NCBI GenBank assembly: GCA_964016885.1
Contig: OZ024740.1
Span: 382,726,001 to 382,790,000 of the forward strand
Direction of reading: 5' to 3'
DNA: 64,000 nt
Origin: Eledone cirrhosa
Taxonomy: Eukaryota
Made by a program: the position numbers and the translations under genes. The stretch's first letter is position 1. Every line of letters starts with the position of its first letter. Below the pieces are notes generated by a model. That model was not told the DNA's origin and did no database searches. It worked only from the letters and a program-made list of their open reading frames with translations. Below, in pieces: positions 8,176 to 58,716 of the stretch.

Positions 8176-8253
<78 letters not shown>

Positions 8254-8263
8254 AGCCAGTAAG

Positions 8264-8357
8264 ACCCCGACGGCTGAGCTGAAGCCGTTTCGACGGCTAA
8301 TTCTGGACTAAATGAAAATTTATCCTGGTATTTAAATAGCCGATCTTCTCAAGGGGT
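8264..8357 (-). ncRNA. Hammerhead family C with U3-A8 core (sense to the PLE ORF)
   Basis: Reverse complement of 11047-11140 with one substitution in stem III. Confidence 0.75.
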
Positions 8358-9469
8358 AATTCCATATATGGTCAAAGTGATTGTCAAAGTCAGTAGTAAT
8401 TCTGTGATTGCAAATTAGTGGGGGAGATGATGGCTAAACCTGCCAGTAGGAGAAAGAGTGCCAGCTACAGCTGGGCATGAGGTCAAAGAAGATACTGGGG
8501 AGGGGGAAGGGGAGGAAGTCGGAACGGTAGGTAGAACAATGAGGGGTAAAAATATATATGGAAGAAAAAATACTGAGAGTGAAGAAAAGCGAATAAGTGT
8601 AAAGAAAAAAGTAAAGCAAGTTCTACGACCTAAGTCTCTAGCTATTGTTAGGATAAATAAATAAATAAAGAAAGAAAGAAAGAAGTAAAGAAAGAAATAA
8701 AGAAATAACGGAATAAGTAAATGAACTAGGTGGGACGAATAGGCAAGGACACTTTTAAGAGGTATAAGTACGTAAATCATACGGTGACAGGTCAACAAAT
8801 GGGGCCAAAATACTAAAGAGACTACCACGAAATAAATAATAAAGGTTTCTATCCCGGGCACAATGCCAGCAACCACCCAGTGTAGCAAAGTAAACTAGTA
8901 CGAGATAATAATTCTGAGTCCCGAAAAAAATATATACTAATGCTAACTCTAAAAGATCTTAAACAAGCTACATGAAAGTTCGTACGAAGTAAAGGTAGAA
9001 TACGGAAAAATAAATTCAGAATCCACCCCGCCCAAAAGAAAAGCGAAGAAAGAAATACTGAAACGAGAAAATAAGGCATAGTGCCACTAAGAAATATAGA
9101 AGGCACGGAAAATAGTGGGAGCGGTCGAAAAAAGGGGGCAAGTATCCGGGGTCTAAACCAACTGCTATAAAAAGCGGAGTCCGCCAAATCTATCATAGAC
9201 TAGGGGAGGGGGTGGGGGTACTAAGGCTACAAGGGGCCAAAGGGCAGCCTCGGGTGGGCGAGAAAAGACGCCGACAAAGAAGAAGAGCTGGGGTAGAAGG
9301 ACTAAGGAGGGATGGGGGAAGGAAATAAAGGAAGCGATAAAAGAATAAAAAGAAGATCTTACGTCTCCCTTGGCAAGCAGGGGTTACCCATTGCAAGATC
9401 GGCAAGTGGGGTGTTATAGCCCTAGTCTACCCCCCCCCCGGTCATTATGGGGTTTGAGGGCGAGGTAAG

Positions 9470-10665
9470 TCCTACGCAATCTATGTTTACATGCAGTAAC
9501 CAGTTCATCTTTCTTGTTTAGGAGTTGGTCCGTCGAAAACAGCATTTGTAAAGTTTCCTCCGAGCATAAATTGCACGGACGGCGTCTTCCCGTGTAAGAA
9601 TTGGCTCTGGACAGTAATCTCCAAGTGAGATCATAGGTGATGTTGTTGTCCTTGAGGTCCCATATGTGGCCCGAAAGTGTAGTGGCGTGACGCCGGGCCG
9701 GGTTTCGGAAGGTATGTCTATGTTGGTATAGCCGGGTTTGAAGTCACATGCGGTAAGTCCTATATAGGCTTTGTTTGAGGTATCCGTCCTCACGTTGCAC
9801 TGGTAGATCACATTACGGTCTCTGCATCTATTGTCGAGTGGGCAAATGGATCTATCCGGACAGTTACACCTCCTGGTCGGATCTCCACTGCTATTTAGGT
9901 TATTTCTGCCATCGGGGTTGAGTTTTTTGTTGTTAGAGGAGACGATGTTTTGTGCGAAGTTTGGTGTAGTGCTGTAAGAGAGTTTGATGGTATTTTTGTT
10001 AATTATGTTGTGGTAGCGGTGTTGTAGTGGGAAGTGTTTTTCAATGAGCCTAAAGAATAGTTTACCGATGGGAGTTGTCACCTCTGCGTTGTGGGGAGGA
10101 TTGAACCATGTTACATTGCGTGAGAGGCGGTGTCTCCTGCTGGTTCCGCTAATGGGAGCTGGACAGTAGGATATTTCCTCCCGGAAACCACTCCGCTTGA
10201 GGGCCTGGTTGTAATACGTCGCATGTTCATCGAATATCCGCTCATTAGCTGACAAACGGGATATGCGGAGGGAGATGTTTTTGACCAGGTTGTTTGTGAT
10301 GTTCCTAGGATGGTTTGATCGGCGGTGGATGTAGTGCAGGTTGTCATTAGGTTTCCTGTATGGGTAGTACAGGTCGTTTTCGAGGTCGAGGGTCACGTCC
10401 AGGAAGTTTACTCGGGTCAGGGACGTTTGTAGGGTTATTTTAAATCCCCAGTCGCGGAAGAAGCTGATTAATTGTTTCCGGACCCGATCTGTACTACTGG
10501 GGTTGTACCGTTTAAGGGTAAGGAGCCCATCATCACGGTACAATCCACCACCGAATGCAGGAAACATATCAGTGAGTTTGGCTATTAGGAATAATCCTAT
10601 AAGATCTGTGACCTCCGCCGAATCCTTGGCGCCCATGCTGACGTCGAAGGGTGAGTCGGGGGCTC
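9470..10665 (-). pseudogene. PLE reverse transcriptase (C-terminal half) plus GIY-YIG endonuclease, one frameshift near 9730
   Basis: FDVSMGA, GLYRDDGL, NFLDVTL, CNC..CPL..C, VIYQC..YIGLT; continues in another frame as HIWDLK..CNLC..LNKKDEL..CKH. Confidence 0.92.
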
Positions 10666-11046
10666 TTTTTATCCATTTTCTTTCTTTACTTCTTTCTTTC
10701 TTTATTTATTTATTTATCTAGCCTAACAATAGCTAGAGACTTAGGTCGTAGAACTTGCTTTACTTTTTTCTTTACACTTATTCGCTTTTCTTCACTCTCA
10801 GTATTTTTTCTTTCATATATATTTTTACCCCTCATTGTTCTACCTACCGTTCCGACTCCCCCCCTCCCCAGTATCTTCTTTGACCTCATGCCCAGCTGTA
10901 GCTGGCACTACCAACGCTTGATTGGGTCTACTCCACCCCCTCCCCTCTTTCTCCTACTGGCAGGTTTAGCCACCATCTCCCCCACTAATTTGCAATCACA
11001 GAATTACTACTGACTTTTGACAATCACTTTGACCATATATGGAATT

Positions 11047-11140
11047 ACCCCTTGAGAAGATCGGCTATTTAAATACCAGGATAAATTTTCATTTAGTCCA
11101 GAATTAGCCGTCGAAACGGCTTGAGCTCAGCCGTCGGGGT
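11047..11140 (+). ncRNA. Hammerhead family C with U3-A8 core
   Basis: ACCCC-TTGAGAA-GA(T)CGGCTA...TAGCCGTC-GAAA-CGGCT-TGAGCTC-AGCCG-TC-GGGGT. Confidence 0.78.
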
Positions 11141-11231
11141 CTTACTGGTTCCTATTACCCACTCTACTACCCCAAGTATTGAGTACTTTGGTGCGTTATG
11201 GTCCACCTGGTTCCTTACCACATTTCCTTCG

Positions 11232-17300: not shown

Positions 17301-19810
17301 TAGAATATATATAAAGAGAGAGAAAGAGAGCGAGATACAGAGAGATATACATTTATTTCTTCTCATCCAACTTTCTCTCTCATAACGGACTCTGCAAATT
17401 ACTAGCTCAGATAAAAACAAAACATAGGTCGAACAAACTCAACAGTACACAAATCAGCTCGGAAACAAAATATCAGTCCGCAATAATGTAAATCTATGAA
17501 AGCTTATTAAACTTTTTTTTCTTTTATCTTTTTGATTTCAAATCATGCCACGCAAAAACATAAATATTTTGTTCAGTCTGGTGATTCATAAATGGCTTAA
17601 CAGAGGTGATGATGGATATTTCCTCAATTTCGACGAAGAACATTAACTATGAATAAACGACTCATTTACTTACCGTGTAAATGATTATGTACTTGGCAGT
17701 CACGATAAAACTTAACCTTTTTCCTCATCAGCGTGACAGATAAAGTAAGAAGTCAGGTACAATTCTGGTGACGGGTTTCTACGCCTTTTCCTCACCTCAA
17801 TTTCACTTACAAGACATACTTTGATACGAGTTGGTCTTAACAAAAGCTGAATACGATGTAACTTAATGGTATCGAACAGAGGAGGTCCGGTTTTGAATGT
17901 AGACTTTTTACACACCCTTTACATACATGTTAAAATAGATTAACATTTCCTTAGTTTATGCCTTGTCTATATTATATCGGAATTTTGTACGAAAAAATAA
18001 AAGTATTATAACATCACACGCTACAGAAGGAATATTGAAAATCAAATATAATCTACAGATAGTAAGGTGTATTGATGTTTTTCAAATCTCAAATTTTCAC
18101 AACGGAAATACCAAGTGTTTTTTCAGATAAGTACAGAATGCTCACTTATACTTGTTCGTATATATACCCGCACAGTATGTATGCTTTTATGAGCATTTTT
18201 GTATGGATGTATGTGTTGTCTGCGTGTATGTGTGAATAAAACTGAGAAAGTGAACATAGACTATCAAATAGAATGTAAGAGAATTGTATTACTATGAGAA
18301 AACCATTGTAAAAAATATTCCTTATTCTAAAGTATGTAAAGCAATTATTTGCTTGCGAATATTCACTTGATACAAGAAGCCAGCAAACAGTACTAAAAAC
18401 ACGAAGAAATAAAAATAGCGTTTACACATTTACAATCTAAAAGCAGTAAGTTCCAATATTTGATGGATTTGACGATATATATAAATCAAGGCGAAAGGAA
18501 GGAAATTCAATTTACTAATTTATAGATGTTAGGACTGAACCTAATTTTGTAAAACGGTGCTGAAGATGCGAATAATGCGAATATAGTTTCTTAAAAGCAA
18601 ATTTGACAATGAATATAAAATCCAAATTAATTTAGCCACATACAAATACGTCAATGGTTAAACTATACACAAAGGAAATAAAGATGACAATAATTGTTTT
18701 ATCCATTTATATACACTCTAAACCATATTACTATTAATGTAAAACAAAATTTATATTTTCATGTTTTTATAAGTGTGTTTACAGAATAGGCTAACTCAAA
18801 TTACTAAATCCAAGCTATGGAACCTTGTATTGGATTCCATTTAAACGAAAATGATTTACTTGCCCAAGTTTCTATTCACTTAAGAAATTTCTTAATCACC
18901 CTACTGTGCTGGTGCATATTAAATGCCACTCAAATTATTTCAGTAACTTTCAATTAATTCAGATATATTTCCATAATTGCCCTGTGATTTAACTATATTT
19001 TCAGACTAATAATTCCAACAATACTTTAAAATGTTTTTTCATTTTCTCCAAAAAGGAACGAATTCTTGAATATCTATATCAATTTAATGTTTTAAACTGA
19101 TTTCACTTCTAGTCTCTAGATTTCTTCTTTCTCTTTATTCTATTTTATATCAGTCTTTCTCCCTGCCTTTTTCTCTAACGTTCGTTATCTGTATGATTCT
19201 CTCACCCCCCCCCCATCCTCTCCTCCCCTCTCTCACTCTCTCACTCGAAATTGCTTTAAAATTTTGCAAATGCAGTAATTGTTGTTCCCCAGACAGTTAT
19301 ATATATATTATTTGTACACATTTATTACATCGCTCACATTTGTTGATAATTTGTTTTCTCTGCGGAAGCGACGTGAAATTATTTCCCCATTATTTTATTA
19401 CTTGTATATTCATTCTTTTCATATTTATATGTTGCTTTATATGTTTCGATAATCGGAAATGTTGTTTCTTAGCAGCTGCTCTAGCAGTGAACATGGTTTT
19501 TATATGTTGTAACCATTTGACCCTCAATTTGTACAAAATATATACAAAATGAAAAACGTAATACCCACACAAAACGAGAGGAAATATAATGTCGAACATG
19601 AAAGCTAAATATATACTGAAAAGAATATAGCTTAAGTAAGATATGAAATAAAAGAGAATTAAGAATATCTTCAAGTGAAATGTTTCTTTATGAGTTTCAG
19701 ATTAATATTTCATGAAGTTTGTGCTGTAGTCAAATGTTCAGTCTCATGGGTGATATTTTTTCTATTTATCTATCTGCCTGTGTATTTCTTGCGCATATAA
19801 TGTTAATAAT

Positions 19811-19907
19811 AATAATTGTTTCTACTTTTGGCACAAGGCCAACAATTATCCCAGTGTATTACTGGTACTTTATTTTATCGACCCCATAAGGATGAAAGGC
19901 AAAGTTA
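19811..19907 (-). mobile_element. tRNA-derived SINE, 3' fragment
   Basis: TTTGCCTTTCATCCTTA.GGGGTCGATAAAATAAAGTACCAGT core and (TTA) tail. Confidence 0.85.
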
Positions 19908-19954
19908 TGATCTCTGATTACTGCACAAGACCTGCATTTGTTGGGGAGCTAAAC

Positions 19955-20225
19955 GCGACGTTGACAGCACGCAAACCCTACAAAGACCAGATTACTGAAC
20001 TAGTTTATCGGGCTTTGACGGGGGCAATCGTCAACAACAAATGGTGGTTTGCCCTGAAGGCTGCGTTGTCAGAGCTAGGGCGTGTGCTCTCAGAAACGAG
20101 GGAACGAAAGCCGTTCGATGGGCCCGAGTGGCGGAGGACCACGACGTTCGCACGTTAGTAGAACCCGAGCAAATGTGTGAGGGTTTTCAGCGGCACTTCA
20201 CTCAGCTGTTTGGGAGCAGAGAGGC
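19955..20225 (+). mobile_element. Tx1-like LINE ORF2 internal fragment
   Basis: RALTGAIVNNKWWFALK, matches ~32590-33060 with deletions. Confidence 0.85.
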
Positions 20226-20235
20226 GTCGTTGTTC

Positions 20236-20846
20236 TTGGAGTCTCAGTCATTAATGTTATTTAAATGGAAAGTTTGTTCAAATAAACATCAAGCTGCTAC
20301 CTGCTGACTCAGATAATCAGGACGTATCGGGGGTAATTTCTGTTCCCGGCAAACATGCCGTTTGAAGTGTTCAAAAAAAAGGTTGACTGGAGTAATGTTC
20401 TTTACCCATCATTGAAAACGCTTTGAGTTAGTACCTAGTGTTCCTATGATAATCAGGACGACCTTGATCTCATGACAGTCCCAACTCCTTTTAAACTCCC
20501 ACTTTAAATCCTGGTATCGGTTAATTTTATCCTTCTCTTTTTTTTGAACTCTTGTGTCAAATGGGCAGGCTACATCTACAATCAGGCACGATCTTTATTT
20601 CTTCTTAGAAATCGCCAGATCAGGCCTATTGTTTTATAATTGCTTGTCCGTCTGTATCATGGCATCCCATAGCACCTTCGCTTGATCGTTTTCTATCACC
20701 GACTCTGGCTTACCACTGCTCAGAATATGGTAAATTATTCAGTTTGCATAAATGCCAGTGAATCACCTTTCCAATTATATCATGCTTCCATCCTTTATAG
20801 TGAGTCTGGGCTAGGTGTTTACACTCGGATACGATGTGAGCCATAG
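20236..20846 (-). mobile_element. R4/Dong-like RLE LINE 3' fragment
   Basis: HIVSECKHL, NRPDL, VDVACPFD, RYQDLK; 3' UTR homologous to the 21057 and 35545 copies. Confidence 0.85.
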
Positions 20847-20906
20847 TCGGTGAGGTAGCCCTCTCCTTGTCAATATCTGTGTATTATTATTATTATTATT
20901 ATTATT

Positions 20907-21041
20907 ATAGTTACGTCCCTTTACGGTCTGAGTTCAAATCCCGCCGAGGTTAACTTTGCCTTTCATCGTTACGGGGTCGATAAAATAAAGTACCAGTAAT
21001 GTACTGGGTATTTGCTGGCCTTGTGCCAAAAGTAGAAACAC
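20907..21041 (+). mobile_element. tRNA-derived SINE, 5'-truncated, between (ATT)n runs
   Basis: B box GAGTTCAAATC plus family core. Confidence 0.88.
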
Positions 21042-21056
21042 TTATTATTATTATTG

Positions 21057-23153
21057 TTCTTTGAGTCTCAGTCTTTCATGTTATTTAACTGGAAAGTTTG
21101 TTGAGATGAATATCAAGCCACTACCTGCAGCCTCAGATATTCAGGAAGTATTGGAGGGTTCTTGCTGTTCCCAGCAAGCATGCCTTTTGAAGTTTTCCTT
21201 GGAAACTCTTTGAGATAGTACCTAGTGCGCCTATGACAATCGGGACCACTTTGATTTCATGGCAGTTCCAAATCCTGTTTACCTCCCACTTTAAGTCCTG
21301 GTATCGGTTAATTTTCTCCCTCTCCTTTTCTTACACTCTCGTGTCGAATGGGCAGGCCACATCCACAATCAGCACGATCTTTTTTCCTTGTCCCAAACCA
21401 CCAGGTCAGGTCTATTGTGTGCCAGCTTCTTGTCCGCCTGTATCCTAAAATCCCACAGCACCTTCACCTGATCGTTTTCTATCACCGACTCTGGCTTATG
21501 CTCATAACACTTCTCAGAATGTGGTAAATTGTTTACTTTGCATAGATGCCAAGGGATCACCCTGCCCATCACATCATGTCTCCAGCCTTTATAGTGAATC
21601 TGGGCTAGGTGTTTACACTCGGATACAATGTGAGCCACAGTCTCCTCTATCTCTCCACATATCCTACACAGTGGGCTAGCCTCCTCTTTGTAAATATGAT
21701 GTTTCAGCCACTTCGTTTTGAAGGCCTGCTCCTGCGCAGCCATTAGCATTCCTTCTGTAGCCTTTTTAAGGTATCCTTCTTTCAACCAGTTCCATGTCTG
21801 TGGATCTCTAAATTCCGTTTTCTCAAAGAAGGTACTATGAAGGGATTTTTCATGAAGGTTGCTCTTCCTCCTTGTTATTTCCTCCTTCGACATCCCCTGG
21901 TCTATTGTCCCCTCCTTCAGTACAATTCTGAACATTGGCTCCCTACTATCTGTCACGTATTTTTGTAGGTTGTTTTTTTGCATCTGAACATAGTCCTCTA
22001 TGCTGATAAATCCTCTTCCACCTTCAGATCTCCTTAAGTAGAGTCTATCGACATCACTCCTCTTGTGGTACATGTTGTAGATAGTCAATAGCTTCCTAGT
22101 CTTCCTATCCATTTCTTTTTGTTCAGCAACATTCCATCTCAGAATTCCCGCACTGTACCTAATAATAGAGACAGCTCGTGAATTTACTGCACTTATGGCA
22201 TTCCTACTGTTCAGGTGTGACTTTAATACGCTCCCTACTCTCCGAATGTATTCAGATCTTATCAATTCCTTCATTTTTTGTTCTTGATGTCATCAGCCTC
22301 CAGAACACCCAAATACCTGTATCCTTCTTCAGTGTCAATTTCCTTTATCATATCACCTGTTGGTACCTGGATTCCGTTGCTTCTGCTCAATTTACCCCTC
22401 TTCATTACAAGGACTCCAGACTTACTAATGCAAAATTGCATACATATATCATTGCTGAAAATACAGACAGTGTCAACAAGCACATCCAACTCCTTCTCAC
22501 TCTTCCCGAAGAGCTTAAGATCGTTCATGAAGAGGAGGTGATTGAGGGTAAGGTCTCCCTTTCCTAACTTGTATCCTCTCTCACTTTTTAAAGTATAATG
22601 GTCAGGGTCATCAGGGCAAGGACAAACAACAGAGGGGACAGGCTACCTCCCTGGAAGATACCTCTCTTGATCTTCACGCCTCCCAAGGATTCTCCAGCTG
22701 ATGTTAACGCTGTTTACTAGGACTTCATACTTTTGCCCAACAACTGTCTGATGTTATCTGCCACCTTGAAGAACTCTAGGATTTTGGTTATCCAAGAATG
22801 AGGCACCATGTCAAATGTCTTTTTGTAGTCTATCCATCCCATGGCAAGACCAGTGTGTCTCCTCATGCAATTCCTCATTACCATCTTATCGATAAGTAAC
22901 TGGTCCTTTGTACCACGTGACTTCTTTCGGCATCCTTTCTGTTCGTCCGGTAACAAGTTGTTTGTGTGGAGGTGATGGTAGATTTCCTCAGACATAATTC
23001 TTGTCAACAGTTTCCACATTACGGACAAACATGTGATAGGTCTATAGTTGGTAACATCATTACCCTTGATTCGGTCTTTCATTAACAGAACTGTGGTACC
23101 TTTTGTCGACCAATCTGGTACCTCACCTGACATCAAGCAGTCATTGAACATGG
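21057..23153 (-). mobile_element. R4/Dong-like RLE LINE, 5'-truncated
   Basis: YRPITCL, EQKGC, WIDYKK.FD, GIFQG, CRIC..H..C, RPDLVV; (TAA)n at both ends; same family as 61880-64000. Confidence 0.92.
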
Positions 23154-23167
23154 TTATTATTATTATT

Positions 23168-24510
23168 TCACTGAAAGGTCGCGCGGAGGTAGCGAATGCG
23201 TACATCGCGTCCGTCATCTATTACCGCCTAACCGTCGTGCCTTGCCCCCGTCCGCGCCTCGTCAAGTTGGAACGGCTCCTCTTCAAATTCTTGTGGAGGG
23301 GACAAGTTCCGTTGGTGAGGCGGTCCATCTGCTGCCAGCACCCTCTACGCGGAGGGCTGGGCATGCCGTGGCTAATGATGCGCAGACATGCGTTGAGGCT
23401 GCGACATCTGCAGATATTCTGCCTCAATGGTGAACAGGTGTGGTCGCCGTTTATCAGACGGGCCTTTCCGCAGCTCATTTCTTTGACTGAGCTGCAGTCC
23501 TGGGTCAAGAAGAGACCGAGACCGGGTGACTGGCACCTGGAATGTTGCCAGGCACTCATTGCCCTCTAACAAGCGGGCAATGCGATCAGTGGAACTTCCA
23601 CTCTCGAGTTCTATAGAGGATTAGTGGTGGGCAAGTGCGATGACGCACTCGGAGAAGCTTTGGGCCTCGACTAAGTCGAACTGAACAGTCTGTACCGGAG
23701 GACTTTTGAGCTGGGGAGGATGGACAATTTCCAGAAATCCCTCACTTGGCAGTGCTACCGGGGGGCACTGCCGGTTCGGGATAAACTCTACAGGCACGGA
23801 AGTGCTGTCAGACGGACCAGCCCAAGATGCGCACAGAACGACGAAACCGTTCAGCACGCACTTGTGCAATGTCCGTGCATTACTGACTTGTTGAATTATG
23901 TCGAACAGCTACTGTCGCGTGTGGAACGAATCTGGTTATCGGCCGATTACATAGTGAAGATCGAGCCGCCACCTTCCTTAGGTCAGGAAGAGCAGGACAT
24001 TTTCCTCTGTCTGGTGGCAGTTGCGAAAGAGATTATATGGTGGACCAGGTTGAAAGGACTAAAGACAGACACTTTTCTCTTCGGCCAATCCCTCATCAAC
24101 TTCTTCAAGTTTCACCTGGAAAGGAGGGTGAGGGTGGAGAGAGAAGTGCTGCCCCCCAGTACATTTGCTAAAAGGTGGGTGAATGTGGCGAGAATGGCTC
24201 GTGTGAATGGGCCTACTCTGGTCATGCGCCTATAGGCTGGCTAACTTGAGGAGAGGGGTGCTCTCCTGGGTGCCCTAGAAGCGCAGGGTGGTTCAGGATT
24301 GGTGGGGTACCCGAATCACCCCAGGGTCGTCCACCCCCTATCGGGGAATTTATTTTGTTATATTTTGCATTGTTTATTTTATATTTTTATATTTTCATTG
24401 TTAAATTAGTCTTGCCATTGTGCACTTTTACTCGACCTTATTGTAAACCCCCACTGTCCCTGTCTTTGTATTGTCCCCTACATGTCGGCCCTTGTGGCTA
24501 ATAAATGAAA

Positions 24511-24512
<2 letters not shown>
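23168..24512 (+). mobile_element. Tx1-like (L1 clade) LINE, 5'-truncated copy 1
   Basis: GGLGMP, C..C..ETVQHALVQCP; 3' UTR ends AATAAATGAAATC then (ATT)26. Confidence 0.9.
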
Positions 24513-24590
<78 letters not shown>

Positions 24591-24816
24591 GGCCGCATAT
24601 GTGTGAAGACAGACAAGTCTGCGGGGGAAAATGTTCGTAGCTTTAAGCTGTTTTAAAGCGTCTTTTTTTTGTATTTTCTTGTCATTAACGAAACTTAAGG
24701 TATACATCTTGATTTAAAGAGAGGGATACCTCTCAATATTCGGGCTTTAAGCCCGAATATTCAGATTTATTTTTTTAAAACTTCGAAAAAAATCGCTTCC
24801 CCACCAAAAGAAAATT

Positions 24817-26760
24817 ATGGAAATGTTAGATCTTGAAACGGTAAACAACGTTCAGGTCAAAAGTTTAAAGGCAGCCACTGCAGATTTCACCACGACTACG
24901 ACGGCTACAGTCATGCCTGTCATCCACTCTACTGAATGTGAAGGCAAAACTAAAAAGCTACCATCACAACCTTCTGCCATAGCAGCAGTATCATCTGAAA
25001 ACGACATCACCACCACCGCCACCACCACCACCACCACCACCACCACCACAACAACAACAACTCAGAGCAATAACGACAATACCACCGACAGCTTCAATGT
25101 AAACAAGGATGGCGGTGGCAACAGCAAGAATGACAACAACAACAATAAGAGCATCAGAAACACCACATTTGCTGCAGCAGCAGCAAAAACAAAGCGCTTA
25201 TTGAATATTGATATTGATATTAGCGATAAAGACGAACAGTTGGCCAAAGCGTGGAGGCTAATTAAATGGGAGAAGTCCTGGGCAAACCTGACCATCCTAG
25301 ACGAGGCAATAGCGGCCATGCAAAGGAGGACGGTGCTCTTTCGATGTATTTCGGTGCAGACACGAAAAGTGGAACTTGCGAGCCAAGCAGAGGTTGAGGC
25401 TGCTTTGGAGTACATCGGAAGTAACATAGAGTACAAAGCAAGAGGCAAACAGTTCGGTACCATCTCGGTACTGTTCAAAACCGAGGCCCTCGCTATTAAG
25501 CACTCGGTGATCCCCTGCAGAACGGAACACATTATCATGCATCCGTCCTATATGGGTAAAAGGACAGTGAAGGTACGCATTCCCAGCATCCCACCAGGAA
25601 TAAACATATGGTGGCTGCTGGGATGCGTAATCGAGGAGGGGACAGACACCACCCTCCTGGACATCAAAAGGACAGAGAGAGAGGACTGGTCCGGAATGGA
25701 TTTGGAGATTCTTCTCCAAATGAAACCGGAAGACATGAATAACATCCCAGATTTTGCCCGCCTGCAGGACGGGACAACAATCCAACTAATGATTGACGGA
25801 AAAGGCCACGCTGCTTCGTTTGCGGGGAAGCAACGCATCTTCAAGCCTTCTGCCCTCAGCGCAAAAATGCAGGGGGTCGCAAACCTCCTTTGTTGCCAAC
25901 GCCAGTGTCAGCACGGAAAGCTGCACCACCACCACCACCAAAAACAACATCAACAAAAACACGGACACCAACATCAAAAGCAGCCGGATCACCACCAACA
26001 CCAAAACCAATCCAAGGAGAAAACGAGGAAAGCTCTCCCACTCCCCCTACCCCCCCAATTATACACATAGACAAAAAAAAATAAATAAACGCACACACAG
26101 ACACAGAGACACTCACAGACACAGACCCTTTGTCTTCCAGCAGCGAAGATGAAGAAAAACCCCAAAGTGCAAAAAAACAGAGAAAACTCACACAAAAAAG
26201 CCCCAACAAAACATAAAAACACACACAACAAAAAATACAGACACCACTAACGCAAACACTTCCCCAATAACATCAGCACCATCAGCAACATCGACACCAC
26301 CTCCACAATCCACGAAACGCAAACAACCTAAACCAACACAAATACAAATAAACACACAAATACCTGAAATTGCAGACACCACACCTACAACAAACATAGA
26401 CATACCCGAAACAACACCACCAAAACCATCGCCACCACCTTCACCAAAACGAAAACAAATAAAACCACACCAACAAAATGTTAAAAAATTCGTGCTTGTC
26501 AGACGGGCCAACGATAAACTGATGGCCCTCTTAGCGCGAAGCGAGGACATTCAAACAGAGGGGGAGATTTTTGAAATGAGCACATTTTGCGTGCCAGAAA
26601 ATTTGCTTCTGGTCCGAATGTCACTCAATTCCTTCAAAGAAATTCGAGAGAGGTTTCCTCAAGACGTGGGAACCCCGAATGTGAAACCCACATCAAGACT
26701 TTTAAAGGGGTTCCCAAAAGAAACCCCACCAACCATGGAGGTCGAACCACCCGACCTTCA
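24817..26760 (+). pseudogene. Tx1-like ORF1 (low-complexity N-terminus, RRM-like region, CCHC knuckle after a frameshift)
   Basis: KRTVKVRIPSIPP; frameshifted RPRCFVCGEATHLQAFCP at ~25803-25860. Confidence 0.75.
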
Positions 26761-29712
26761 CATGGCCATATTAAGAGTAGGAAGTTTAAATGTTCGCGGC
26801 CTGGGGTCACCCTGGAAGCAGGGTCGCCTGCTCAACGACCTCCGGTCGCTGGAAATGGATGTGATTGCTGTAAGCGAGACCAGAATTTCCGACACGCGCG
26901 CACTAGCCCCTATTTTCGACAACTATCAGATCTTCTCATCTGTTAGCAGGCCGGGAATGGGGGGTGGGGTGGCAGTGCTGTTTAGGAAAGGACTGGATCT
27001 CGAGGTAAGGTCGATCTTCCGGGACCCGCACGGTAATTTGGTGGTCTTGGATGTGAGCAGTAGCGAAGGTGGTGCCTTTAGACTGCTGGCCGTCTACGCC
27101 CCTACAGGGACGGGACGACCTGACTTCTTTAGGCGCCTGGAGACCTTTCTGCGTACGTCTCGCCCTTTACTGTTAGCGGGCGACTGGAATGGCATCTTAG
27201 ACGCACGCTGGGATTGTGTGGGAGTAGCCGATAGGAGCGGGGGGGGGGGGGTGCAAAAGCCTCAAGCACCTACTCAGCCAGTTCCAACTGTCTGACAGGT
27301 ATCGACTAGATTTCCCCAATGTGCCAGTATGGACATGGACCAACCGAATGGGTCATCTAGATCGTATATAGACAGAATCTTCATTAGGAAAATCGATAGA
27401 AATAGTGTGGGCTGTGCACTTTTTAAAACGGTCACCTATTCAGGTCACAAATTTGTGATCTGTACGGTCGACCTAAATAAAACGCGTAGGTTAGGACCGT
27501 GTTACTGGAAGCTGAACATGTCATTTCCGGCACGTAAGGCTTACAGGGACCGAGTCAACAAGTTAGTTAAGCAAAAGTTGACAGGGGGGATCATCAACAA
27601 CAGATGGTGGGGGGCTCTCAAAAGAGAGATTAGAGTAACTTCGATAGAGTTCAGCAAAGAACTAGCGTTAGAGAAAAATAGAAAGGAGGGGGAGCTGGTA
27701 GATAAGTTAGACGAGGCTATTTGTAGTGGCACGCAACTGACGTGCGAGCGGCGAGAATGGCATTAGACCATTTCTTCAATGCCAAACACGAAGGTTGCAT
27801 TGTCAGAGCTAAGGCGCGTGCGCTGAGAAACGAGGGAACTAAAGCTGTTCGATGGGCCCGCGTGGCGGAGGCGCAGCGTGGTAATAAAACCACAATTCGG
27901 TCTTTGGCGGACCGAGACGGACACGAGATAAGCGATTCCAAGCGGATGTGTGAGGCCTTTCGCCAGCACTTTGCTCGGTTGTTCAGGGAGAGTGGCGAGT
28001 CAGAGAGAGTAGCGGATTTCAGTCCCTACCTTGACGGCTTGCCGCGCATCTCGACGGTCGACGCTGAGCGCTGCGAAAGGCCGATTACTTCAGCCGAAAT
28101 TCAGGACGCCCTTGTCGGCTGCATGAGGCGCAAGTCACCCGGTTTGGATGGCCTGCCCTACGAGCTTTACGTAAATATGCCAGACTTGTTCTCCGAACTC
28201 CTCGAAGCACTCTACTGTAACTGGCAGCATAATGGGAGTATTCCCAGTTCTGTGAGCAGGGGAGTGGTGACGCTGATAAGGACAGACGAGAACAAGAGGG
28301 ATACATTAGACAACTTCAGGCCCATAACTCTGCTCAACACAGAGTTTAAGATTTTGGCCAAGGTTTTAGCAAAGAGATTGGCGCTTGTCGTCGAGGATTT
28401 TGTTGGGGAGGCGGAAACTTGCGCAATCCCTGCCAGGTCCATACACGACAATCTCCACCTGATGCGATACATCATAGAGAGGGTGGGGTGTAAACCTGGC
28501 TTCGGTGGGGGCACTGATCAATTTAGATCAATCGAAAGCATTCGATAGTGTCGACCATCGGTATCTGGAGTTTGTCCTCAAAGCAGCTGACTTCGGCCCT
28601 ATCTTTAGAAGCTGGATCCTTGCAATGCACAGCGGCACACGCTCGGTGGTCAAGGTTAATGGCCACCTCTCGGAACCATTTCGGCTCTCCCGATCGGTCC
28701 GTCAAGGGTGCCCTCTCTCTTCCCTTCTGTACGTATTGACTCTCGAGCCTTTACTGCGGAAGCTGGAGTTGTTGCAGGGCATCCCGCTCGAAGCGGGACG
28801 TGGAAAGGCGGTGTCGGCTTATGCGGACGGCATCACCGTGATGGTGTCGAACACCTCAGAAATCGAGGTGGTCGGCACCTTATTGAAGGAATATTCTGCC
28901 TCAATGGTGAACAGGTGTGGTCGCCGGTTATCAGACGGGCCTTTCCTCATCTCATTTCTTTGACTGAGCTGCAGTCCTGGGTCAAGAAGAGACCGAGACT
29001 GGGTGACTGGCACCTAGAATGTTGCCAGGCACACACTGCCCTCTACCAAGCGGGCAATGCGATCAGTGGAACTTCCACTCTCGAGTTCTATAGAGGATTA
29101 GTGTTGGGCAAGTGCGATGACGCACTCGGAGTAACTTTGGGCCTCGACGAAGTCGAACTGACCAGTCTGTACCGGAGGACTTTTGAGCCGGGGACGATGG
29201 ACAATTTCCAGAAATGCCTCGCTTTTCAGTGCTACCGGGGGGCACTGCCGGTTCGGGATAAACTCTACAGGCACGGAAGTGCTGTCAGACCGACCTGCCA
29301 AATATGCGCACAGAACGACGAAACCGTTCTGCACGCACTTGTGCAATGTCCGTGCATTACTGACTTGTGGAGTTATGTCGAACAGCTACTGTCGCGTGTG
29401 GAACGAATCCGGCTATCGGCCGAGTCCATAGTGAAGATCGACCCGCCCCCTTCCTTAGGTCAGGAAGAGCAGGACATTTTCCTCTATCCGGTGGCAGTTG
29501 CGAAAGAGATTATATGGTGGACCAGGCTGAAAGGACTAAAGACAGACACTTTTCTCTTCGGCCAATCCCTCATCAACTTCTTCAAGTTTCACCTGGAAAG
29601 GAGGGTGAGGGTTGAGAGAGAAGTGCTGCCCCCCAGTACATTTGCTAAAAGGTGGGTGAATGTGGCGAGAATGGCTCGTGTGAATGGACCTACTCTGACC
29701 ATGCGCCTATAG
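26761..29712 (+). pseudogene. Tx1-like ORF2 (APE endonuclease, RT, CCHC), frameshifted
   Basis: SLNVRGL, VSETR, AGDWN, YIDRIF, YWKLN, KSPGLDG, FRPITLLN, DQSKAFD, VRQGCPLS. Confidence 0.92.
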
Positions 29713-29988
29713 GCTTGCTAACTTGAGGAGAGGGGTGCTCTCCTGGGTGCCCTAGAAGCGCAGGGGGGTTCAGGATTGGTGGGGTACCCGAATCACCCCA
29801 GGGTCGTCCACTCCCTATCAAGGAATTTATTTTGTTATGTTTATGCATAGTTTATTTTATATTTTTATATTTTCATTGTTAAATTAGTCTTGCCATTGTG
29901 CACTTTTACTCGACCTTATTGTAAACCCCCACTGTCCCTGTCTTTGTATTGTCCCCTACATGTCGGCCCTTGTGGCTAACAAATGAAA

Positions 29989-30020
<32 letters not shown>

Positions 30021-33000
30021 GAATGCTATGGTTGACGGAGGCTCGGCTCTGTAAGGTATTGTAAATTTTGACCGCTATAACAATTGTAAATTGTTTAAAA
30101 CTTTAACCAAATTGTAGACAAAAACACCCTGCTCCTCGTGAGAGGGGTCTTTCTGTCCGTTATTTGGCCCTTCAGGGTTAAATAACCGCTTATTGGGGTT
30201 TTGTGCCCAATATTTATTTTAAACGAAAAATAATTTTCACAAGTCACACCCACTCATTCCGTCTTCTTCCTCAATCGTCACTACAGCAGAATGAAGATTT
30301 TCTCTCTCTCTCCCTTCTCTAAATGTGTCTCTCTCCCTCCCTTCTCTTTCGCAAGCGACGCCAGTAAAGAAAAATAGTTTACAAAATCACGTGCAAATCA
30401 AGGAAAATTTCTCCACGACGACAACAACGACGAAAAAGGTGTGCGGGAAATACGAAAACCGATTTCATTCGTCTGACGTCATAAATAATAGCAGTAGCAG
30501 CCGTAATAACAGCAGAAGCAGCAAAAGTGACAAGGAAAACAACAGTAGCAGCCGCAACAGCATCAGCAGAAGCATAAAAAACAACAGCATTAGCAGCAGC
30601 AGCAACAACAACAACAACCACAGCAACAGCGGCGGCGGCAGTAGTCGTAGTACCTGCAGCAACAACAAAAGTAACAGCAGCTCTGACGACAACAACAACA
30701 ACAACAACAACAGCAGCAAATAAAAACCAATCTCGTTTGCAGGTATCGCAAAGAACCTGGAAACCATCCTCATAATACATGAGGAATTACAGGAAGCGAA
30801 GAAGATGGTGACGAAAACCTGACACCGAGGAATCAGCAAGGCAGCCGACACATTTTTCGAAACCCAACAGCAGTGTACGGTCACGTCCCGTACAGTAAGC
30901 ACAAAATCCCGTAGAGTTGAAAGAGCCACAGAGGCTCAAATACAAAAAGTCTTAGGGTCTGTGTGGCAGCGGAAAACGCATATCACCCGAGGCAAGAAAT
31001 ATGCCACCGTAGACGTGCCACACCCCAGGAGGCAAAGGCTCAATCATTAGTGACCCTAAGGAGCGAGGAAATGGTGTTGGTGTCCTCCTACTGCGGCCAA
31101 AAAATTGTGAGGGTCAGACTGACCCACGTGCCCCCCCCCCCCCACAGGATGGCCCCTTCTTGGCTGGCTGCGTCTGTCCTCGTCGGAATCGAGGACAAAA
31201 CAACTGTACTGCAAGTACAGAAAAAAGTAAGAGAAGATTGGGTCGGCACCTCCATTGAGATGTTAATCCAAACCAACCAGGAGTGCATCAAAGCTATCCC
31301 GGATGTGATAGACTTCGATAACGGCACTCAGCTGCCCATAAGTGTTGAGGGCAAACGCCCGAAATGCTTTCGCTGTGGATCGAAGACACACCTCAGGGCC
31401 TTCTGCAACGAGAAGACCCTGAGAAAGGACCACGGCTACCAGCAGCAGAACAAGTGGCAACCAGGAACGATAGGTCCGTGGCTCCCATACCCACGTCACG
31501 GAAATCAAGAACAGTAGCAGCAGTGGAAGTATTAACAACAACAGCAGTAATACCAAATGCAGCTGCAACAGAGACTCCACTGCAAACATCACCAACAACA
31601 ACAAGTGAAAGAGTGGAGCTGGTACCCCTCCCCGACCTCACAGAATCAGACATGGAGTGTGAGGTGGGAGAGGGATGGCAAAAGGTCGTAAGAAGGCACA
31701 AACGAAGAAGCAGCACATCGCCGACTTCGAAAAGGGAGGAAAGAAATGAAAAAAGGGTAAAGTCTACTGCAAAGGATGGAGAAACCATCCTTCCTCTACG
31801 AAAAGTACGGTAAGTGGTCGTTCCCATCTTTTCCACTCCATTTTAAACATTGATCTCACTCAGAATAAGCAGCATAAATGCGCGTGGCTTGGGGTCGTCA
31901 TGGAAGCAGGGTCACCTGCTCAACGAGCTCAGATCACTAAACATAGATGTAGTGGCCATCAGCGAGACCAGAATCTCCGAAGCACAGGCCTTCGCACCGA
32001 TCTTCGGCGGCTACGATATGTACGCATCTCCCAGCCGTCCTGGATCGGGGGGAGGAGTTGCTGTGATTTTTCGGAGGGGTTTGCATCTCGCCATACGGGC
32101 CATCTTCCTGGACCCAGAGGGTAAGTTGGCGGTGATGGACGTGACAAGCGGAGACGGGCAAGCTTTCAGGCTAGTGGCCGTCTATGCCCCGACAGGAGCA
32201 GGGCGGCCTGATTTCTTCCGGCGTCTGGAGACCTTTCTTGGAACGCACCGCTCTTTAGTGTTAGTGGGCGACTGGAACGGGATCTTAGATGCACGCTGGG
32301 ACTGTGTGGGATTAGCGGATAGGGGTGGAGGGTGAAAAAGCCTCACCAACCTGCTCAGGCGTTTTGAACTGTCTCACAGGTACCGATTGGATTTCCCGAT
32401 AGTGCCAATGTGGACTTGGGCAAATCGCATAGGGTCATCCAGATCATATCTAGATAGAGTATTTTGTAGGAAATCGATAGGTCTAGTATAGGCTGTCCAC
32501 AATTCAAGATAGTCAGCTACACGGACCACAACTGTGTGCTTCACTTAGATAGGCTTCATAGACGAGGACCCGGCTACTGGAAGCTAAACGCGTCCTTACC
32601 AGCGCACAAGGCCTACACAGACCGGATTAGCGAACTAGTTAAGCGGGCGTTGACGGGGGCCATCGTCAACAACAAGTGGTGGTTTGCTTTGAAAAGAGCG
32701 ATTAGAATAGAATCCATTAGGTTTAGTAAGGCTTTCGCAATAGAGAAAAATAGAACAGAGGGAGAACTAGTTAGAAAATTAGACGAGGCGCTTAGTAAAG
32801 GTATCGCGATCGACGTGCTTCCGGCGAAATTGGCCCTTGACCAATTCTTCAATGCAAAGCACGAAGGCTGCGTTGTCAGAGCTAGGGTGCGTGCTCTCAG
32901 ACACGAGGAGACGAAAGCCGTTCTAGGCCCGAGTGGCGGAGGCGCGTCGTGGCAACAAAGCCACGATCCGGTCTTTGGTGGACCACGACGGGCGCATGCT

Positions 33001-35482
33001 ACTCGATGCCGGGAAAATGTGTGAAGTTTTTCAGCGACACTTCGCTCAGCTGTTCGGGGGCAGCGGTGGGCCGGGTCGAGGGATGGACTTTAGTGTCTAC
33101 CTCGACGGACTGCCGCGGCTCTCGGCCACTGAGGCGGAGTGTTGCGAAAAGCCGATAACAGCAGCTGAAGTACGGGAGGCAATGACTGGCTGCATAAGGG
33201 GTAAATCGCCTGGTTTGGATGGTCTGCCCTATGAACTTTACGTACAGATGCCAGACTTGTTCGGAGGCCTCTTGGCGGACGTCTACTGCAACTGGCAACA
33301 TAACGAGAGAATTCCCAGCTCTGTGAGCCGAGGAGCGGTGGCACTGCAGAGAAAGGATCCGAACAAGGGGGATAACATAGATAATTTCAGGCCCATAACT
33401 CTGCTAAACACAGGGTTCAAGATTATGGCCAAGGTGCTAGCAAAGAGGTTGGCGCTTGTCGTTGGTGGTCTGGTGGGCGAGGCGCAGACGTGCGCCATTC
33501 CCGACAGATCCATCCAAGACAATCTCCACCTCATGCGATACATCGTAGAGACGGTAGCTAGGGAACCTGGCACGGGTGGGTCCTTGATCAATTTAGATCA
33601 GTCGAAAGCTTTCAATAGGGTCAACCATCGTTACCTAGCGGCAATCCTGAGGGCGGCTGGCTTTGTGCGCGTCTTCAGAGGCTGGATCGCTCTGTTGTGA
33701 GACTGAACGGTCACCTTTGGAACCGTTCAACATCATGCGCTCGGTCCGCCAAGGATGTCCCCTCTCGTCCCTCTTGTACGTATTGACTCTCGAGCCATTA
33801 CTGCACAAACTGGAGACGTTGAGGGGCGTCCCGCGCGAACTAGGATGCGGAAGATCCGTGTCAGCATATTCGGACGATCTCACCATAGTGGTGTCGAACG
33901 CCAAACACATGGAGGCGATCGGCACTACACTAAGAGAATACGAAGCGGTGACAGGAGCAATGATCAACCAGGAAAAGTCAGTGGGCCTGCAGCTCGGCAC
34001 CTGGAGAGGCAGATCCATGCCGTCCAACAGCGTCGTCGGACGCTGGACGGACGGACCGGTTAAATTGCTAGCGGTATGGTTCGGTCCGGACCTCCAGACG
34101 GACAAAAACTGGGACGAGGTGACGTGCAGGGTGGCTTCTCTCACCCAGAAATGGGCGGAACGGAAGCTATCCATGAAAAGTCGAGCGGAGGTGGCTAACG
34201 CGTACATTGCGTCTGTCATCTGCTACCGCCTGACCGTCGTAACTTGTCCTAAGCCCCACCTGACTGCGCTGGAGCGTATGCTCTTTCGCTTTTTGTGGAA
34301 GGGACGCGCTCCGATGGTCAGGCAGTCCATCTGCTGTCAACACCCACTACGTGGAGGGCTGGGCATGCCGTGGCTTATGATGAGTAGACACGCGCTCAGG
34401 CTACGACATCTCCACCTCTTCCTCGACGGTGATCAGGTGTGGTCGCCGTTTGCTAGACACGTATTTCCCCAGCTCGTTTCCTTGACGGAGCTGCAGTCCT
34501 GGGTCAAGCGAAGACCGAGAGGGAGCGCCTGGAGACTGGAATGTCTTCAGGCGCTCACAGCCCTCGATCAATCGAGCAATGTGATCGGTGGAAACTCCAC
34601 CTCGGCGTTCTATAGATGATTAGTGGAGGGGAGGAGCGACGACGTACTTGGGGAAACTCTAGGCGTCGACGAAAATCAACTAGCCAATCTCTTCGGAAGA
34701 ACTTTCGGGCCGGGGCCTATGGACAACTTCCAGAAATCTCTGGCCTGGCAGTGCTACCGAGAAACCTTGCCAGTTCGGAATAAACTCTACAGGCATGGAG
34801 GTGCCGTCAGCCGGGCATGTCCGAGATGCGCGCAAGGCGACGAAACCGTCCTGCACGCACTCGTCCAGTGTCCGAACATTGCTGACTTGTGGGTTTATGT
34901 CGAACACCTGCTGTCGCGTGTAGGACGGATCCGGCTATCATCTGAGTCCATCGTGAGGATTGCCACACCCTCTTCCTCTAGCCGAGAATGGCATGCAGTT
35001 TTTATCTGTCTGGTGGCCATGGCGAAAGAGATAGTATGGTGGACGCGTTTGAAAGGGCTGAAGACGAGCACTTACCTCTTCGGTGATGCCCTGATTAACT
35101 TTTTCAAATTTCATTTGAAAAGGAAAATCAGGGTAGAGAGGGAAGTGTTCTCTTCCCAGCATTTTGTTGAAATATGGGTGAGAGAAGCAAGAATGGCCCG
35201 AGTGAATGGGCTTACTCTGAGTATGTATCTGTAAATTAAAGTTGGAAAACTGGGAGAGGGCACTTGCCTTGGTGGTCAGGGTCACTGTGGTCTTTTACTG
35301 GGCTTTCTCCACAAATGTCCCTCCGAAGTCTCCCCCCTATTGGGGAATTTTTCATTGTTTTTTTTTGTTACATCCTCTGTTTTTGTTTATTACACGCAGA
35401 AATGCCCATTTGTACCGTCCTGTATTTTCCTGCACTGTCCTTAATGTCTACTTTATGTAAACCCTTGTCGTTAATAAAGAAA

Positions 35483-35484
<2 letters not shown>
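30021..35484 (+). mobile_element. Tx1-like LINE copy 3 (diverged sister family), apparently full length
   Basis: ORF1 with CFRCGSKTHLRAFC; ORF2 31850-35234 with all domains; ends AATAAAGAAATC then (ATT)n. Confidence 0.92.
31850..35234 (+). pseudogene. Tx1-like ORF2 (APE-RT-CCHC) with stops and frameshifts
   Basis: SINARGL, GDWN, TDH, YWKLN, YSDD, CPRC..HALVQCP. Confidence 0.92.
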
Positions 35485-35538
<54 letters not shown>

Positions 35539-35544
35539 GTTATG

Positions 35545-36101
35545 ACTCTTTGAGTCTCAGTCATTGATGTTAGTTAACTGTAAAGTTTGTTGAAATGAAT
35601 ATCAAGCCACTACCTGCAGCCTCAGATATTGAGGATGTATCGGAGGGTTCTTGCTGTTCCCAGCAAGCATGCCTTTTGAAGCGTTCCAAAAAGCGTGAAG
35701 GGGCCAATTTTCTTTAACCATCCCTGGAAACCTTTTGAGATAGTCCCTAGTGCGCCTATGACAATCGGGATCACTTTGACTTCATGGCAGTTCCAAATCC
35801 TTTTTACCTCCCACTTTAAGTCCTGGTATCGGTTAATTTTCTCCCTCTCCTTCTCTTGCACTCTCGTCTCGAATGGGCAGGCCACATCCACAATCAGGCA
35901 CGATCTTTTTTCTTTGTCCAAAACCACCAGGTCAGGTCTATTGTGTTCCAGTTTCTTGTCCGTCTGTATCCTAAAATCCCACAACACCTTCACCTGATCG
36001 TTTCTATCACCGCCTCTGGCTTATGCTCATACCACTTCTCAGAATGTGGTAAATTGTTTACTTTGCATAGGTGCCAGTGGATCACCCTGCCCATCACATC
36101 A
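35545..36101 (-). mobile_element. R4/Dong-like RLE LINE 3' fragment
   Basis: LWDFRIQTD..NRPDLVV..VDVACP..K..RYQDL RLE domain; 3' end abuts (TAA)n. Confidence 0.92.
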
Positions 36102-36276
36102 TGGCAGTATCGGTAGGGGGTCGGACGCCAAGCTTTCCAGCATATTTACGTCACTTTACGATCTGAGTTCAAATCCCGCCGAGGTTGACTTTGCCTTTCA
36201 TCCTTACGGGGTCGATAAAATAAAGTACCAGTAATGCACTGGGTGATTGCTGGCCTTGTGCCTAGAGTAGAAACAC
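36102..36276 (+). mobile_element. tRNA-derived SINE with (TTA)n tail
   Basis: A box TGGCAGTATCGG, B box GAGTTCAAATC, family core. Confidence 0.9.
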
Positions 36277-36582
36277 TTATTATTATTATTATTATTATTA
36301 ATATTATTATTATTATACTACAACTTCTTCTATCCGTCTCCTTGTCAATATGTGTGTATGATTATTCTAATACATCTACTATTACTTCTTCTTCTACCCT
36401 GTCACATTCTATTGCATTTTTGATTAGTTCCTTGCTAGAAAAAAAATAGTTCTGCAGATATTGAACATTTATGGATAAATATGGCAGCATGTAATAACTT
36501 AATATTATTTGTATACTGCCAAAGGAACACACGTAAACATCTTCTGCTAAAAAGTCTGAACACAAATAAACTCATACACACG

Positions 36583-58677: not shown

Positions 58678-58714
<37 letters not shown>

Positions 58715-58716
<2 letters not shown>

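What the first reader, a model, noticed from the sequence alone, without database searches (positions are those of the whole stretch)
19800..36320. 16.5 kb retroelement train linked by (ATT)n with family-specific orientation
Seen from 20883: (ATT)n-SINE(+)-(ATT)n-Dong(-)-(ATT)n-Tx1(+)-(ATT)26-Tx1(+)-(ATT)10-Tx1(+)-(ATT)n-Dong(-)-SINE(+)-(ATT)n, preceded by older SINE, Tx1 and Dong pieces. Tx1 and SINE 3' ends run into ATT; Dong 3' ends run into TAA on the opposite strand. Established: Dong/R4 elements target TAA repeats. Inference: an APE LINE, an RLE LINE and a SINE share one trinucleotide niche, and each insertion regenerates the target for the others. This self-extending array parallels the (TA)n/PLE niche.
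Basis: partly seen in the sequence, partly recalled or inferred. Interest (0 to 1): 0.7.

Follow-up and report, generated by a model that had tools for sequence, protein, structure and literature searches.

The report
Opposite-strand LINEs stacking on ATT repeats
Two unrelated kinds of jumping gene sit in (ATT)n repeats throughout this animal genome in fixed, opposite directions, and they likely pile up into chains like this 16-kb one because each insertion would leave fresh repeat on both sides; the short element in the chain prefers only the five letters ATTAT and likely borrows the enzyme of one of them.

Summary
The train is real and exactly as described. It is one example of a genome-wide pattern in a probably octopod genome. 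Full-length Tx1-like (APE) LINEs start in (ATT)n at 56 of 57 copies, and Dong/R4-like (RLE) LINEs at 17 of 19 on the other strand. Polarity holds at 180 of 183 5' ends that abut a tract. The SINE does not share the microsatellite niche. At blind sites it inserts at a dispersed ATTAT with 10-20 bp target duplications and is no more often in long tracts than ATTAT sites are. It shares a CUUGU-loop hairpin with the Tx1 3' ends, with compensatory stems, so Tx1 likely mobilises it. Target regeneration is inferred from linker lengths. Each ingredient has a published precedent: Dong in (TAA)n, Kibi/Koshi, SART/TRAS, SINEU/Tx1-Mar. An (ATT)n-targeting Tx1 sharing a target with an RLE element was not found in 7 paper searches. 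This scan has already noted the same system on other DNA of this genome (8 notes listed). Verdict: new variant of a known kind.

The parts
19817..19905 (-). 3' half of the SINE; its tail runs into (ATT)4 on its own strand (19805-19816)
19944..20219 (+). old, internally deleted Tx1-like ORF2 fragment (69-83% to Tx1B)
20230..20878 (-). 5'-truncated copy of an older Dong subfamily (78% to Dong1; best relatives elsewhere 87-92%); no ATT tract at its 3' end here
20862..20891 (.). left copy of a 30-nt duplicate (28/30 identical to 36337-36366) that brackets the train; its first half is old-Dong sequence
20883..20906 (+). (ATT)8 linker
20907..21043 (+). SINE, 5'-truncated
21044..21055 (+). (ATT)4 linker, SINE tail to Dong tail
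21056..23155 (-). Dong1 (R4-like), 5'-truncated and broken by stops/frameshifts; RT, CCHC and RLE-type motifs
23156..23167 (+). (ATT)4 linker, head to head
23168..24512 (+). Tx1A, 5'-truncated (3' 1.35 kb)
24513..24590 (+). (ATT)26 linker
24591..29990 (+). Tx1A with both ends: ORF1 with one CCHC knuckle, ORF2 with APE, RT and zf-RVT; broken frames; about 475 nt missing near 28890 compared with other copies
29991..30020 (+). (ATT)10 linker
30021..35484 (+). Tx1B with both ends (72% to Tx1A in ORF2); ORF1 CCHC, APE, RT, zf-RVT; broken frames
35485..35538 (+). (ATT)18 linker, tail to tail
35539..36103 (-). Dong1 3' fragment, young (98-99% to best relatives)
36102..36278 (+). SINE lacking its first ~10 nt, joined directly to the Dong 5' break with no ATT
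36279..36314 (+). (ATT)7 AAT (ATT)4, right border
36337..36366 (.). right copy of the 30-nt duplicate

Best explanation
The train is a stack of separate retrotransposon copies joined by (ATT)n, in which Tx1-like LINEs read along the ATT strand and Dong-like LINEs along the TAA strand, as they do across the genome, and it likely grew by repeated independent insertions into one microsatellite. Shown: target association, polarity, neighbour sharing, SINE insertion at ATTAT with target duplications, and a shared 3' hairpin in SINE and Tx1. Inferred from the target-primed reverse transcription model: Tx1 would nick the (AAT)n strand and prime on its (AUU)n tail, and Dong would nick the (ATT)n strand and prime on its (UAA)n tail, which fixes opposite orientations. 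Each insertion would leave repeat on both sides through target duplication, tail synthesis and slippage, so occupied tracts stay targets and chains grow by rich-get-richer without any partnership. The SINE is likely carried in trans by the Tx1 machinery, needs only ATTAT, and enters arrays because tracts are dense in ATTAT.
For: 5' flanks, which the queries did not contain: Tx1A 27 of 28, Tx1B 29 of 29, Dong1 17 of 19 have >=3 perfect units within 30 nt; Dong1 3' ends 28 of 29. Orientation at 293 tracts: Tx1 183 of 185 ends, Dong 145 of 146, SINE 70 of 72; 5' ends alone 91/92, 64/65, 25/26. Across the tract from a full-length Tx1 5' end lies a Dong, Tx1 or SINE in 45 of 57 cases, against 10 of 35 blind tracts (34% when weighted by length), so the tracts predate the insertion. 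LINE-LINE linkers have a median of 30 nt (n=103) against 15 nt for isolated blind tracts (n=21; p=4e-6). The train holds 81 units, while the longest isolated blind tract is 42 nt. A second array with the same polarity lies 22 kb away, and Tx1 and Dong lie together in 3 of 55 blind 10-kb stretches. SINE: 45 of 50 3' flanks begin with ATTAT, and 26 of 50 have a duplication >=12 nt against 1.3 in shuffled pairings. CUUGU loop with a >=3-bp stem, mostly 16-17 nt before the tail: Tx1A 35/39, Tx1B-like 48/55, SINE 101/121, Dong 0/84, 2 of 2417 other ATTAT sites. The stems differ in a paired way (GGCC/GGCY, AACC/GGUU, AGCC/GGCC, UGGC/GCCW).
Against: 5'-truncated Tx1 junctions are less clean: 12 of 18 counted by eye have >=3 units. 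Two of 19 full-length Dong1 5' ends abut (GAA)n. Tail-to-tail linkers (median 31.5 nt, n=30) are barely longer than head-to-head ones (27 nt, n=27), so tail synthesis is not shown. Tx1 target duplications cannot be measured inside a repeat. The hairpin is not thermodynamically special: z -1.1 to +0.5, and it appears in the minimum-energy fold of 3 of 6 ends. The LINE loci are the best 19-29 matches among 271-1729 candidates, so they favour young copies. Nick positions were not tested.
Confidence: 0.8

Rival explanations
1. The (ATT)n are element-made tails and 5' leaders, not targets: the elements insert at short sites and bring the repeat with them.
For: 3' ends always run into the repeat; full-length Tx1 5' ends are cleaner (56/57) than truncated ones (12/18), as a co-transcribed leader would give.
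Against: Two thirds of truncated junctions still have the tract. In 45 of 57 cases the far side of the tract is another element's end. Silkmoth Dong self-cleaves at its exact 5' end (PMC3774820, passages), so at least that Dong RNA carries no leader.
Confidence: 0.08
2. Arrays spread as composite units, by read-through transcripts, 3' transduction, unequal crossing over or segmental duplication.
For: Some duplicated units exist: L188/L189, L003/L005, and three Tx1B copies at ~6.05-kb spacing on C1 near 57.09-57.10 Mb.
Against: Units in this train are 72-96% identical to each other and face both ways. Neighbours and truncation points differ from locus to locus.
Confidence: 0.07
3. The SINE has a different partner (an RTE, CR1 or L2 family) and only looks like Tx1 at its 3' end.
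For: The SINE is far less repeat-specific than Tx1; the shared stretch is only about 27 nt; only 550 kb of blind DNA plus the fetched loci were screened for other LINEs.
Against: The RTE-like LINEs seen end in (GAT)n or a TA-rich run, not ATT. Loop, spacing and polarity match Tx1 and not Dong. SINEU-1 and -2 also show weaker target preference than SINEU-3 at the target shared with Tx1-Mar (PMC4494074, passages).
Confidence: 0.2
4. Insertion is broad and selection or deletion removes copies outside tracts; or the array is an assembly artefact.
For: No contig or read listed bridged the junctions of this locus.
Against: Selection would not fix orientation. Other LINEs and the SINE persist at dispersed sites in the same stretches. 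RAD reads of another study show Dong 3' ends running into ATT (1904 reads).
Confidence: 0.03

Closest known systems
Dong (R4 clade) of Bombyx mori, Darwinula, molluscs and cnidarians
   Same: Single ORF with RT and C-terminal CCHC/RLE-type motifs, no APE; (TAA)n at both ends on the sense strand. PMC7998251 (passages) states that (TAA)n is the Dong target in most insects, molluscs and cnidarians.
   Different: Nothing essential. At least three subfamilies share the target here. No named Dong sequence was available for a tree.
Kibi (TC)n, Koshi (TTC)n, crocodilian Tx1 (TTCC)n/(TTTC)n, Tx1-1_ACar (telomeric)
   Same: Tx1-like two-ORF LINEs with APE that sit in simple repeats and stack in tandem (PMC4494074 passages and section 15; PMC10088271 passages).
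   Different: The target is (ATT)n, not named in what I could read. A sister family here uses (ATCT)n. Relation to Kibi/Koshi was not tested.
SART1 and TRAS1 in (TTAGG)n of Bombyx mori
   Same: Two families insert into one repeat in opposite directions (PMC7265360 passages).
   Different: Both are APE elements of the R1 clade (recalled) at telomeres. Here an APE and an RLE element share interstitial microsatellites on many chromosomes.
SINEU families with Tx1-Mar LINEs (crocodilians)
   Same: A SINE likely mobilised by Tx1, found at the LINE's target, with weaker preference in some families (PMC4494074 passages).
   Different: SINEU have snRNA heads and poly(A) tails and target a Mariner element. 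This SINE has tRNA-type A/B box-like motifs (recalled consensus), an ATTAT site and a 3' hairpin shared with Tx1.

Membership tests
Tx1 clade | Two ORFs; ORF2 with N-terminal APE, RT and C-terminal zinc finger | tested here: met
   Pfam Exo_endo_phos, RVT_1 and zf-RVT in both long units; CCHC knuckle in ORF1
Tx1 clade | RT closer to Tx1L than to L1 | tested here: met
   P0002, a homologue 77% identical to the Tx1B RT frame, scores 279 bits against Xenopus Tx1 ORF2 (P0173) and 174 bits against human L1 ORF2p; score comparison only
Tx1 clade | Placement in an RT tree with Kibi, Koshi, Keno | not tested
   only one named Tx1 reference was retrieved
Microsatellite-specific Tx1 families | More than 20% of flanks are one repeat type (criterion in PMC4494074) | tested here: met
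   56 of 57 full-length 5' flanks; 12 of 18 truncated ones
R4/Dong clade | Single ORF, RT plus C-terminal CCHC and restriction-like endonuclease, no APE | tested here: met
   motifs read in translations (motif patterns recalled); best solved relatives are R2 proteins; 0 of 120 listed homologues carry PF03372
R4/Dong clade | (TAA)n target on the sense strand | tested here: met
   3' 28 of 29, full-length 5' 17 of 19
R4/Dong clade | RT tree placement with Bombyx Dong and nematode R4; N-terminal Myb-like domain; 5' HDV-like ribozyme | not tested
   no named reference among the homologues
tRNA-derived SINE | Short, non-coding, high copy, target duplications | tested here: met
   about 185 nt; 59 intact 3' ends in 550 kb; duplications >=12 nt in 26 of 50
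tRNA-derived SINE | tRNA-related head with Pol III boxes | tested here: inconclusive
   A/B box-like motifs by eye from a recalled consensus; no Rfam match on the window copy, which lacks its first ~10 nt
Microsatellite-specific SINE | Flanks enriched for long tracts beyond its short motif | tested here: not met
   (ATT)>=3 in 8 of 50 vs 8.8% expected (p=0.07); (ATT)>=4 in 1 of 50 vs 5.4%
Named octopus SINEs (OK, OR1, OR2) and SINE superfamilies | Sequence match to the published consensus | not testable with these tools
   no SINE library is held

The most novel reading that the evidence does not exclude
One Tx1 enzyme gives two insertion patterns: its own RNA lands almost only in long (ATT)n tracts, while a SINE with the same 3' hairpin lands at any ATTAT. 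The endonuclease would then read only about five letters, and microsatellite specificity would come from the RNA (a long AUU tail annealing to the target) or another cis-acting step. Sister families that changed to (ATCT)n, and an RLE element on the opposite strand, would make this genome a natural test bed for how target specificity is encoded and switched.
Probability: 0.3. Interest if true: 0.65.

Novelty: new variant of a known kind. Interest (0 to 1): 0.45.

Why it matters
It names an insertion rule for two LINE groups that a 2026 annotation lists among recently active octopus families without describing targets (PMC13282606, parts 1-2 of 3 read). It gives a simple cause for local element pile-ups and for long AAT tracts. 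Closely related Tx1 families with (ATT)n and (ATCT)n targets, plus a SINE passenger with relaxed specificity, make the split between endonuclease and RNA-tail contributions directly testable by swaps. The biology is an extension of known microsatellite targeting, not a new mechanism.

Tried and rejected
Laying public data on the array: the contigs break in the repeats and the RAD reads come from other copies, so nothing bridged the local junctions and no empty allele was seen. Dating along the array: best matches were 98.9% (Tx1A truncated), 97.2% (Tx1A long), 96.6% (Tx1B), 98.6% (right Dong), 89.7% (3' part of left Dong) and 96.6-96.9% (SINEs); the oldest pieces are at the left edge, but the comparison sets were chosen with some of these units as queries, so no order of insertion is claimed. 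A chimeric origin of the 23168-24512 piece was rejected: the long Tx1A copy has the deletion, not this one. The tail-length test gave no clear difference. RNA folding gave no significant z-scores. An RTE partner for the SINE was sought and not found in the DNA held. The lead Tx1-1_ACar proved telomere-specific, not (ATT)n. PMC3124438, PMC4824008 and PMC8967140 (passages) did not bear on targets. Kojima and Fujiwara 2004 is not held. The 395-aa ORF at 9518-10705 stayed unidentified.
Full report
Setting. The window lies at G000:C1:382726001-382790000 in a 3.0-Gb assembly. The closest named homologue of the Tx1-like RT frame is from Argonauta hians (63% identity), so the host is probably an octopod. 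That is an inference.

Observation. The train holds two SINEs, two Dong1 pieces, one truncated and one long Tx1A, and one long Tx1B, joined by tracts of 8, 4, 4, 26, 10, 18 and 7+4 units. The right Dong and SINE are fused without ATT; a deletion at a 5' junction is the likely cause, and similar direct Dong-Tx1 joins occur in L175 and L176. All LINE copies have broken frames. A 30-nt duplicate (28/30) brackets the train, and its first half is old-Dong sequence. This suggests, but does not prove, growth inside one ancestral site.

Identity of the LINEs. The Tx1 units carry APE, RT and zf-RVT domains and an ORF1 CCHC knuckle. A close homologue scores 279 bits against Xenopus Tx1 ORF2 and 174 against human L1 ORF2p. 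The Dong units show RT, CCHC and RLE-type motifs (patterns recalled). The RT of Dong2, a related family from the second array, matches R2 proteins best among solved structures, and none of its 120 listed homologues has an APE domain. No tree with named clade members was built.

Genome-wide test. I searched G000 with element ends that contained no repeat and read the flanks of the best matches. After removing the window's own copy and one duplicate, at least three perfect units lay within 30 nt at 27 of 28 Tx1A 5' ends, 29 of 29 Tx1B 5' ends, 17 of 19 Dong1 5' ends and 28 of 29 Dong1 3' ends. The Tx1A miss is a degenerate tract; the two Dong 5' misses abut (GAA)n. These are the top matches among 489-1729 candidates, so they favour young copies. 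For 5'-truncated Tx1 copies whose junction lay inside the locus I counted by eye 10 of 12 (Tx1A) and 2 of 6 (Tx1B, one duplicate dropped); copies with internal deletions or junctions out of view were left out. Over 293 distinct tracts in the loci then held, Tx1 faced along ATT at 183 of 185 ends, Dong against it at 145 of 146 and the SINE along it at 70 of 72; for 5' ends alone, where a tail cannot explain it, 91/92, 64/65 and 25/26.

Arrays. Across the tract from a full-length Tx1 5' end there is a Dong (21), Tx1 (14) or SINE (10) in 45 of 57 cases, against 10 of 35 tracts in 55 blind 10-kb stretches taken at round coordinates. 'Other' includes Tx1 subfamilies missing from the library, so both figures are minima. 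A second array, Dong2-Dong1-Dong1-SINE-Dong2, starts at window 58680 with the same polarity. Tx1 and Dong lie together in 3 of the 55 blind stretches (L103, L118, L135), and L106 holds a Dong-Dong-SINE chain. Linkers between LINEs are twice as long as isolated tracts (medians 30 and 15 nt). Simple splitting of one tract would shorten them, so repeat is being added or long tracts are preferred. Intact 3' ends in the 550 kb (Dong 7, Tx1 4, SINE 59) imply very roughly tens of thousands of each LINE and about 300,000 SINEs.

The SINE. Among 50 blind copies with an intact 3' end and >=84% identity, 45 are followed by ATTAT, 32 have a target duplication >=10 nt and 26 one >=12 nt (shuffled control mean 1.3, maximum 5), mostly starting at that ATTAT. 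Only 8 are followed by (ATT)3 and 1 by (ATT)4, against 8.8% and 5.4% of all 2747 ATTAT sites. It is therefore a short-motif inserter that also falls into tracts. In arrays, some SINEs have ATT on both sides and others have unique 5' flanks, so it can be a late guest or a seed. SINE and Tx1 share a CUUGU loop 16-17 nt before the tail, closed by stems that differ in a paired way between Tx1A, Tx1B, a third Tx1 subfamily and the SINE; Dong lacks it. Both of the 2 background hits look like SINE remnants. I had noticed the 3' likeness; the hairpin reading was prompted by note e1-10319827 and then tested. Folding energy does not single the hairpin out.

Mechanism. By the established target-primed model, the nicked strand primes on the RNA 3' end. 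An element ending in (AUU)n must use the AAT strand and one ending in (UAA)n the ATT strand, which gives the fixed opposite polarity. That step, and regeneration of the repeat, are inferred.

What is known. Dong in (TAA)n is published, including for molluscs (PMC7998251, passages). Microsatellite-specific Tx1 families and a Tx1-mobilised SINE are published (PMC4494074, passages and section 15; its Fig. 3 and supplements, which list further targets, were not seen and may bear on novelty). Opposite insertion into one repeat is published for SART/TRAS (PMC7265360, passages). Dong-R4 and L1-Tx1 are listed as recently active in Octopus vulgaris with no target analysis (PMC13282606, parts 1-2 of 3). 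PMC4640811 and PMC3774820 were read as passages. Seven searches found no (ATT)n-targeting Tx1 and no APE/RLE pair on one microsatellite; Repbase reports and the 2004 survey were out of reach. Within this scan the system has been noted repeatedly on other DNA of the same genome; those notes are not independent evidence.

Verdict. Real, genome-wide and mechanistically coherent. New target and new pairing within known kinds. Interest 0.45.

Noticed in passing
window 58680-64000, continuing in L131 to at least 10000: Second array: (AAT)11-Dong2-(AAT)6-full-length Dong1-(AAT)18-truncated Dong1-(AAT)10-SINE(-)-(AAT)6-Dong2, same polarity rule.
   Followed up: yes
L102 8120-10000 and L231-L249: A sister Tx1-like family sits in (ATCT)n: about 9 of 12 visible 5' truncation junctions, by eye. 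The query held ATCT units, so the 3' flanks are biased.
   Followed up: partly
L132-L133 (G000:C1:57.085-57.104 Mb): Three Tx1B copies head to tail at about 6.05-kb spacing with (ATT)8-10 linkers; sequential insertion or tandem duplication not resolved.
   Followed up: partly
L166, L183, L194, L205, L207, L251: At least three further 5' ends, followed by Tx1-like sequence in most cases, begin directly after (ATT)n, so more Tx1 subfamilies likely share the target.
   Followed up: no
L115, L126, L138, L112, L141: Abundant RTE-like LINEs end in (GAT)n, often followed by (AT)n; one family has a tandemly repeated ~120-nt unit in its 3' UTR.
   Followed up: no
L096 4119-4487, L098 7197-7835, L137, L141 3706-4397: Tandem SINE runs in which each copy repeats the same ATTAT-started duplication.
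   Followed up: partly
window 8249-11155: About 450-480-nt inverted repeats (89% alike) inside TA-rich runs enclose a 395-aa and a 159-aa ORF without Pfam match; possibly a DNA transposon.
   Followed up: no
L257, L258, L179, L191: A few Dong and Tx1 ends abut (GAA/TTC)n or mixed AAT/GAA tracts.
   Followed up: no
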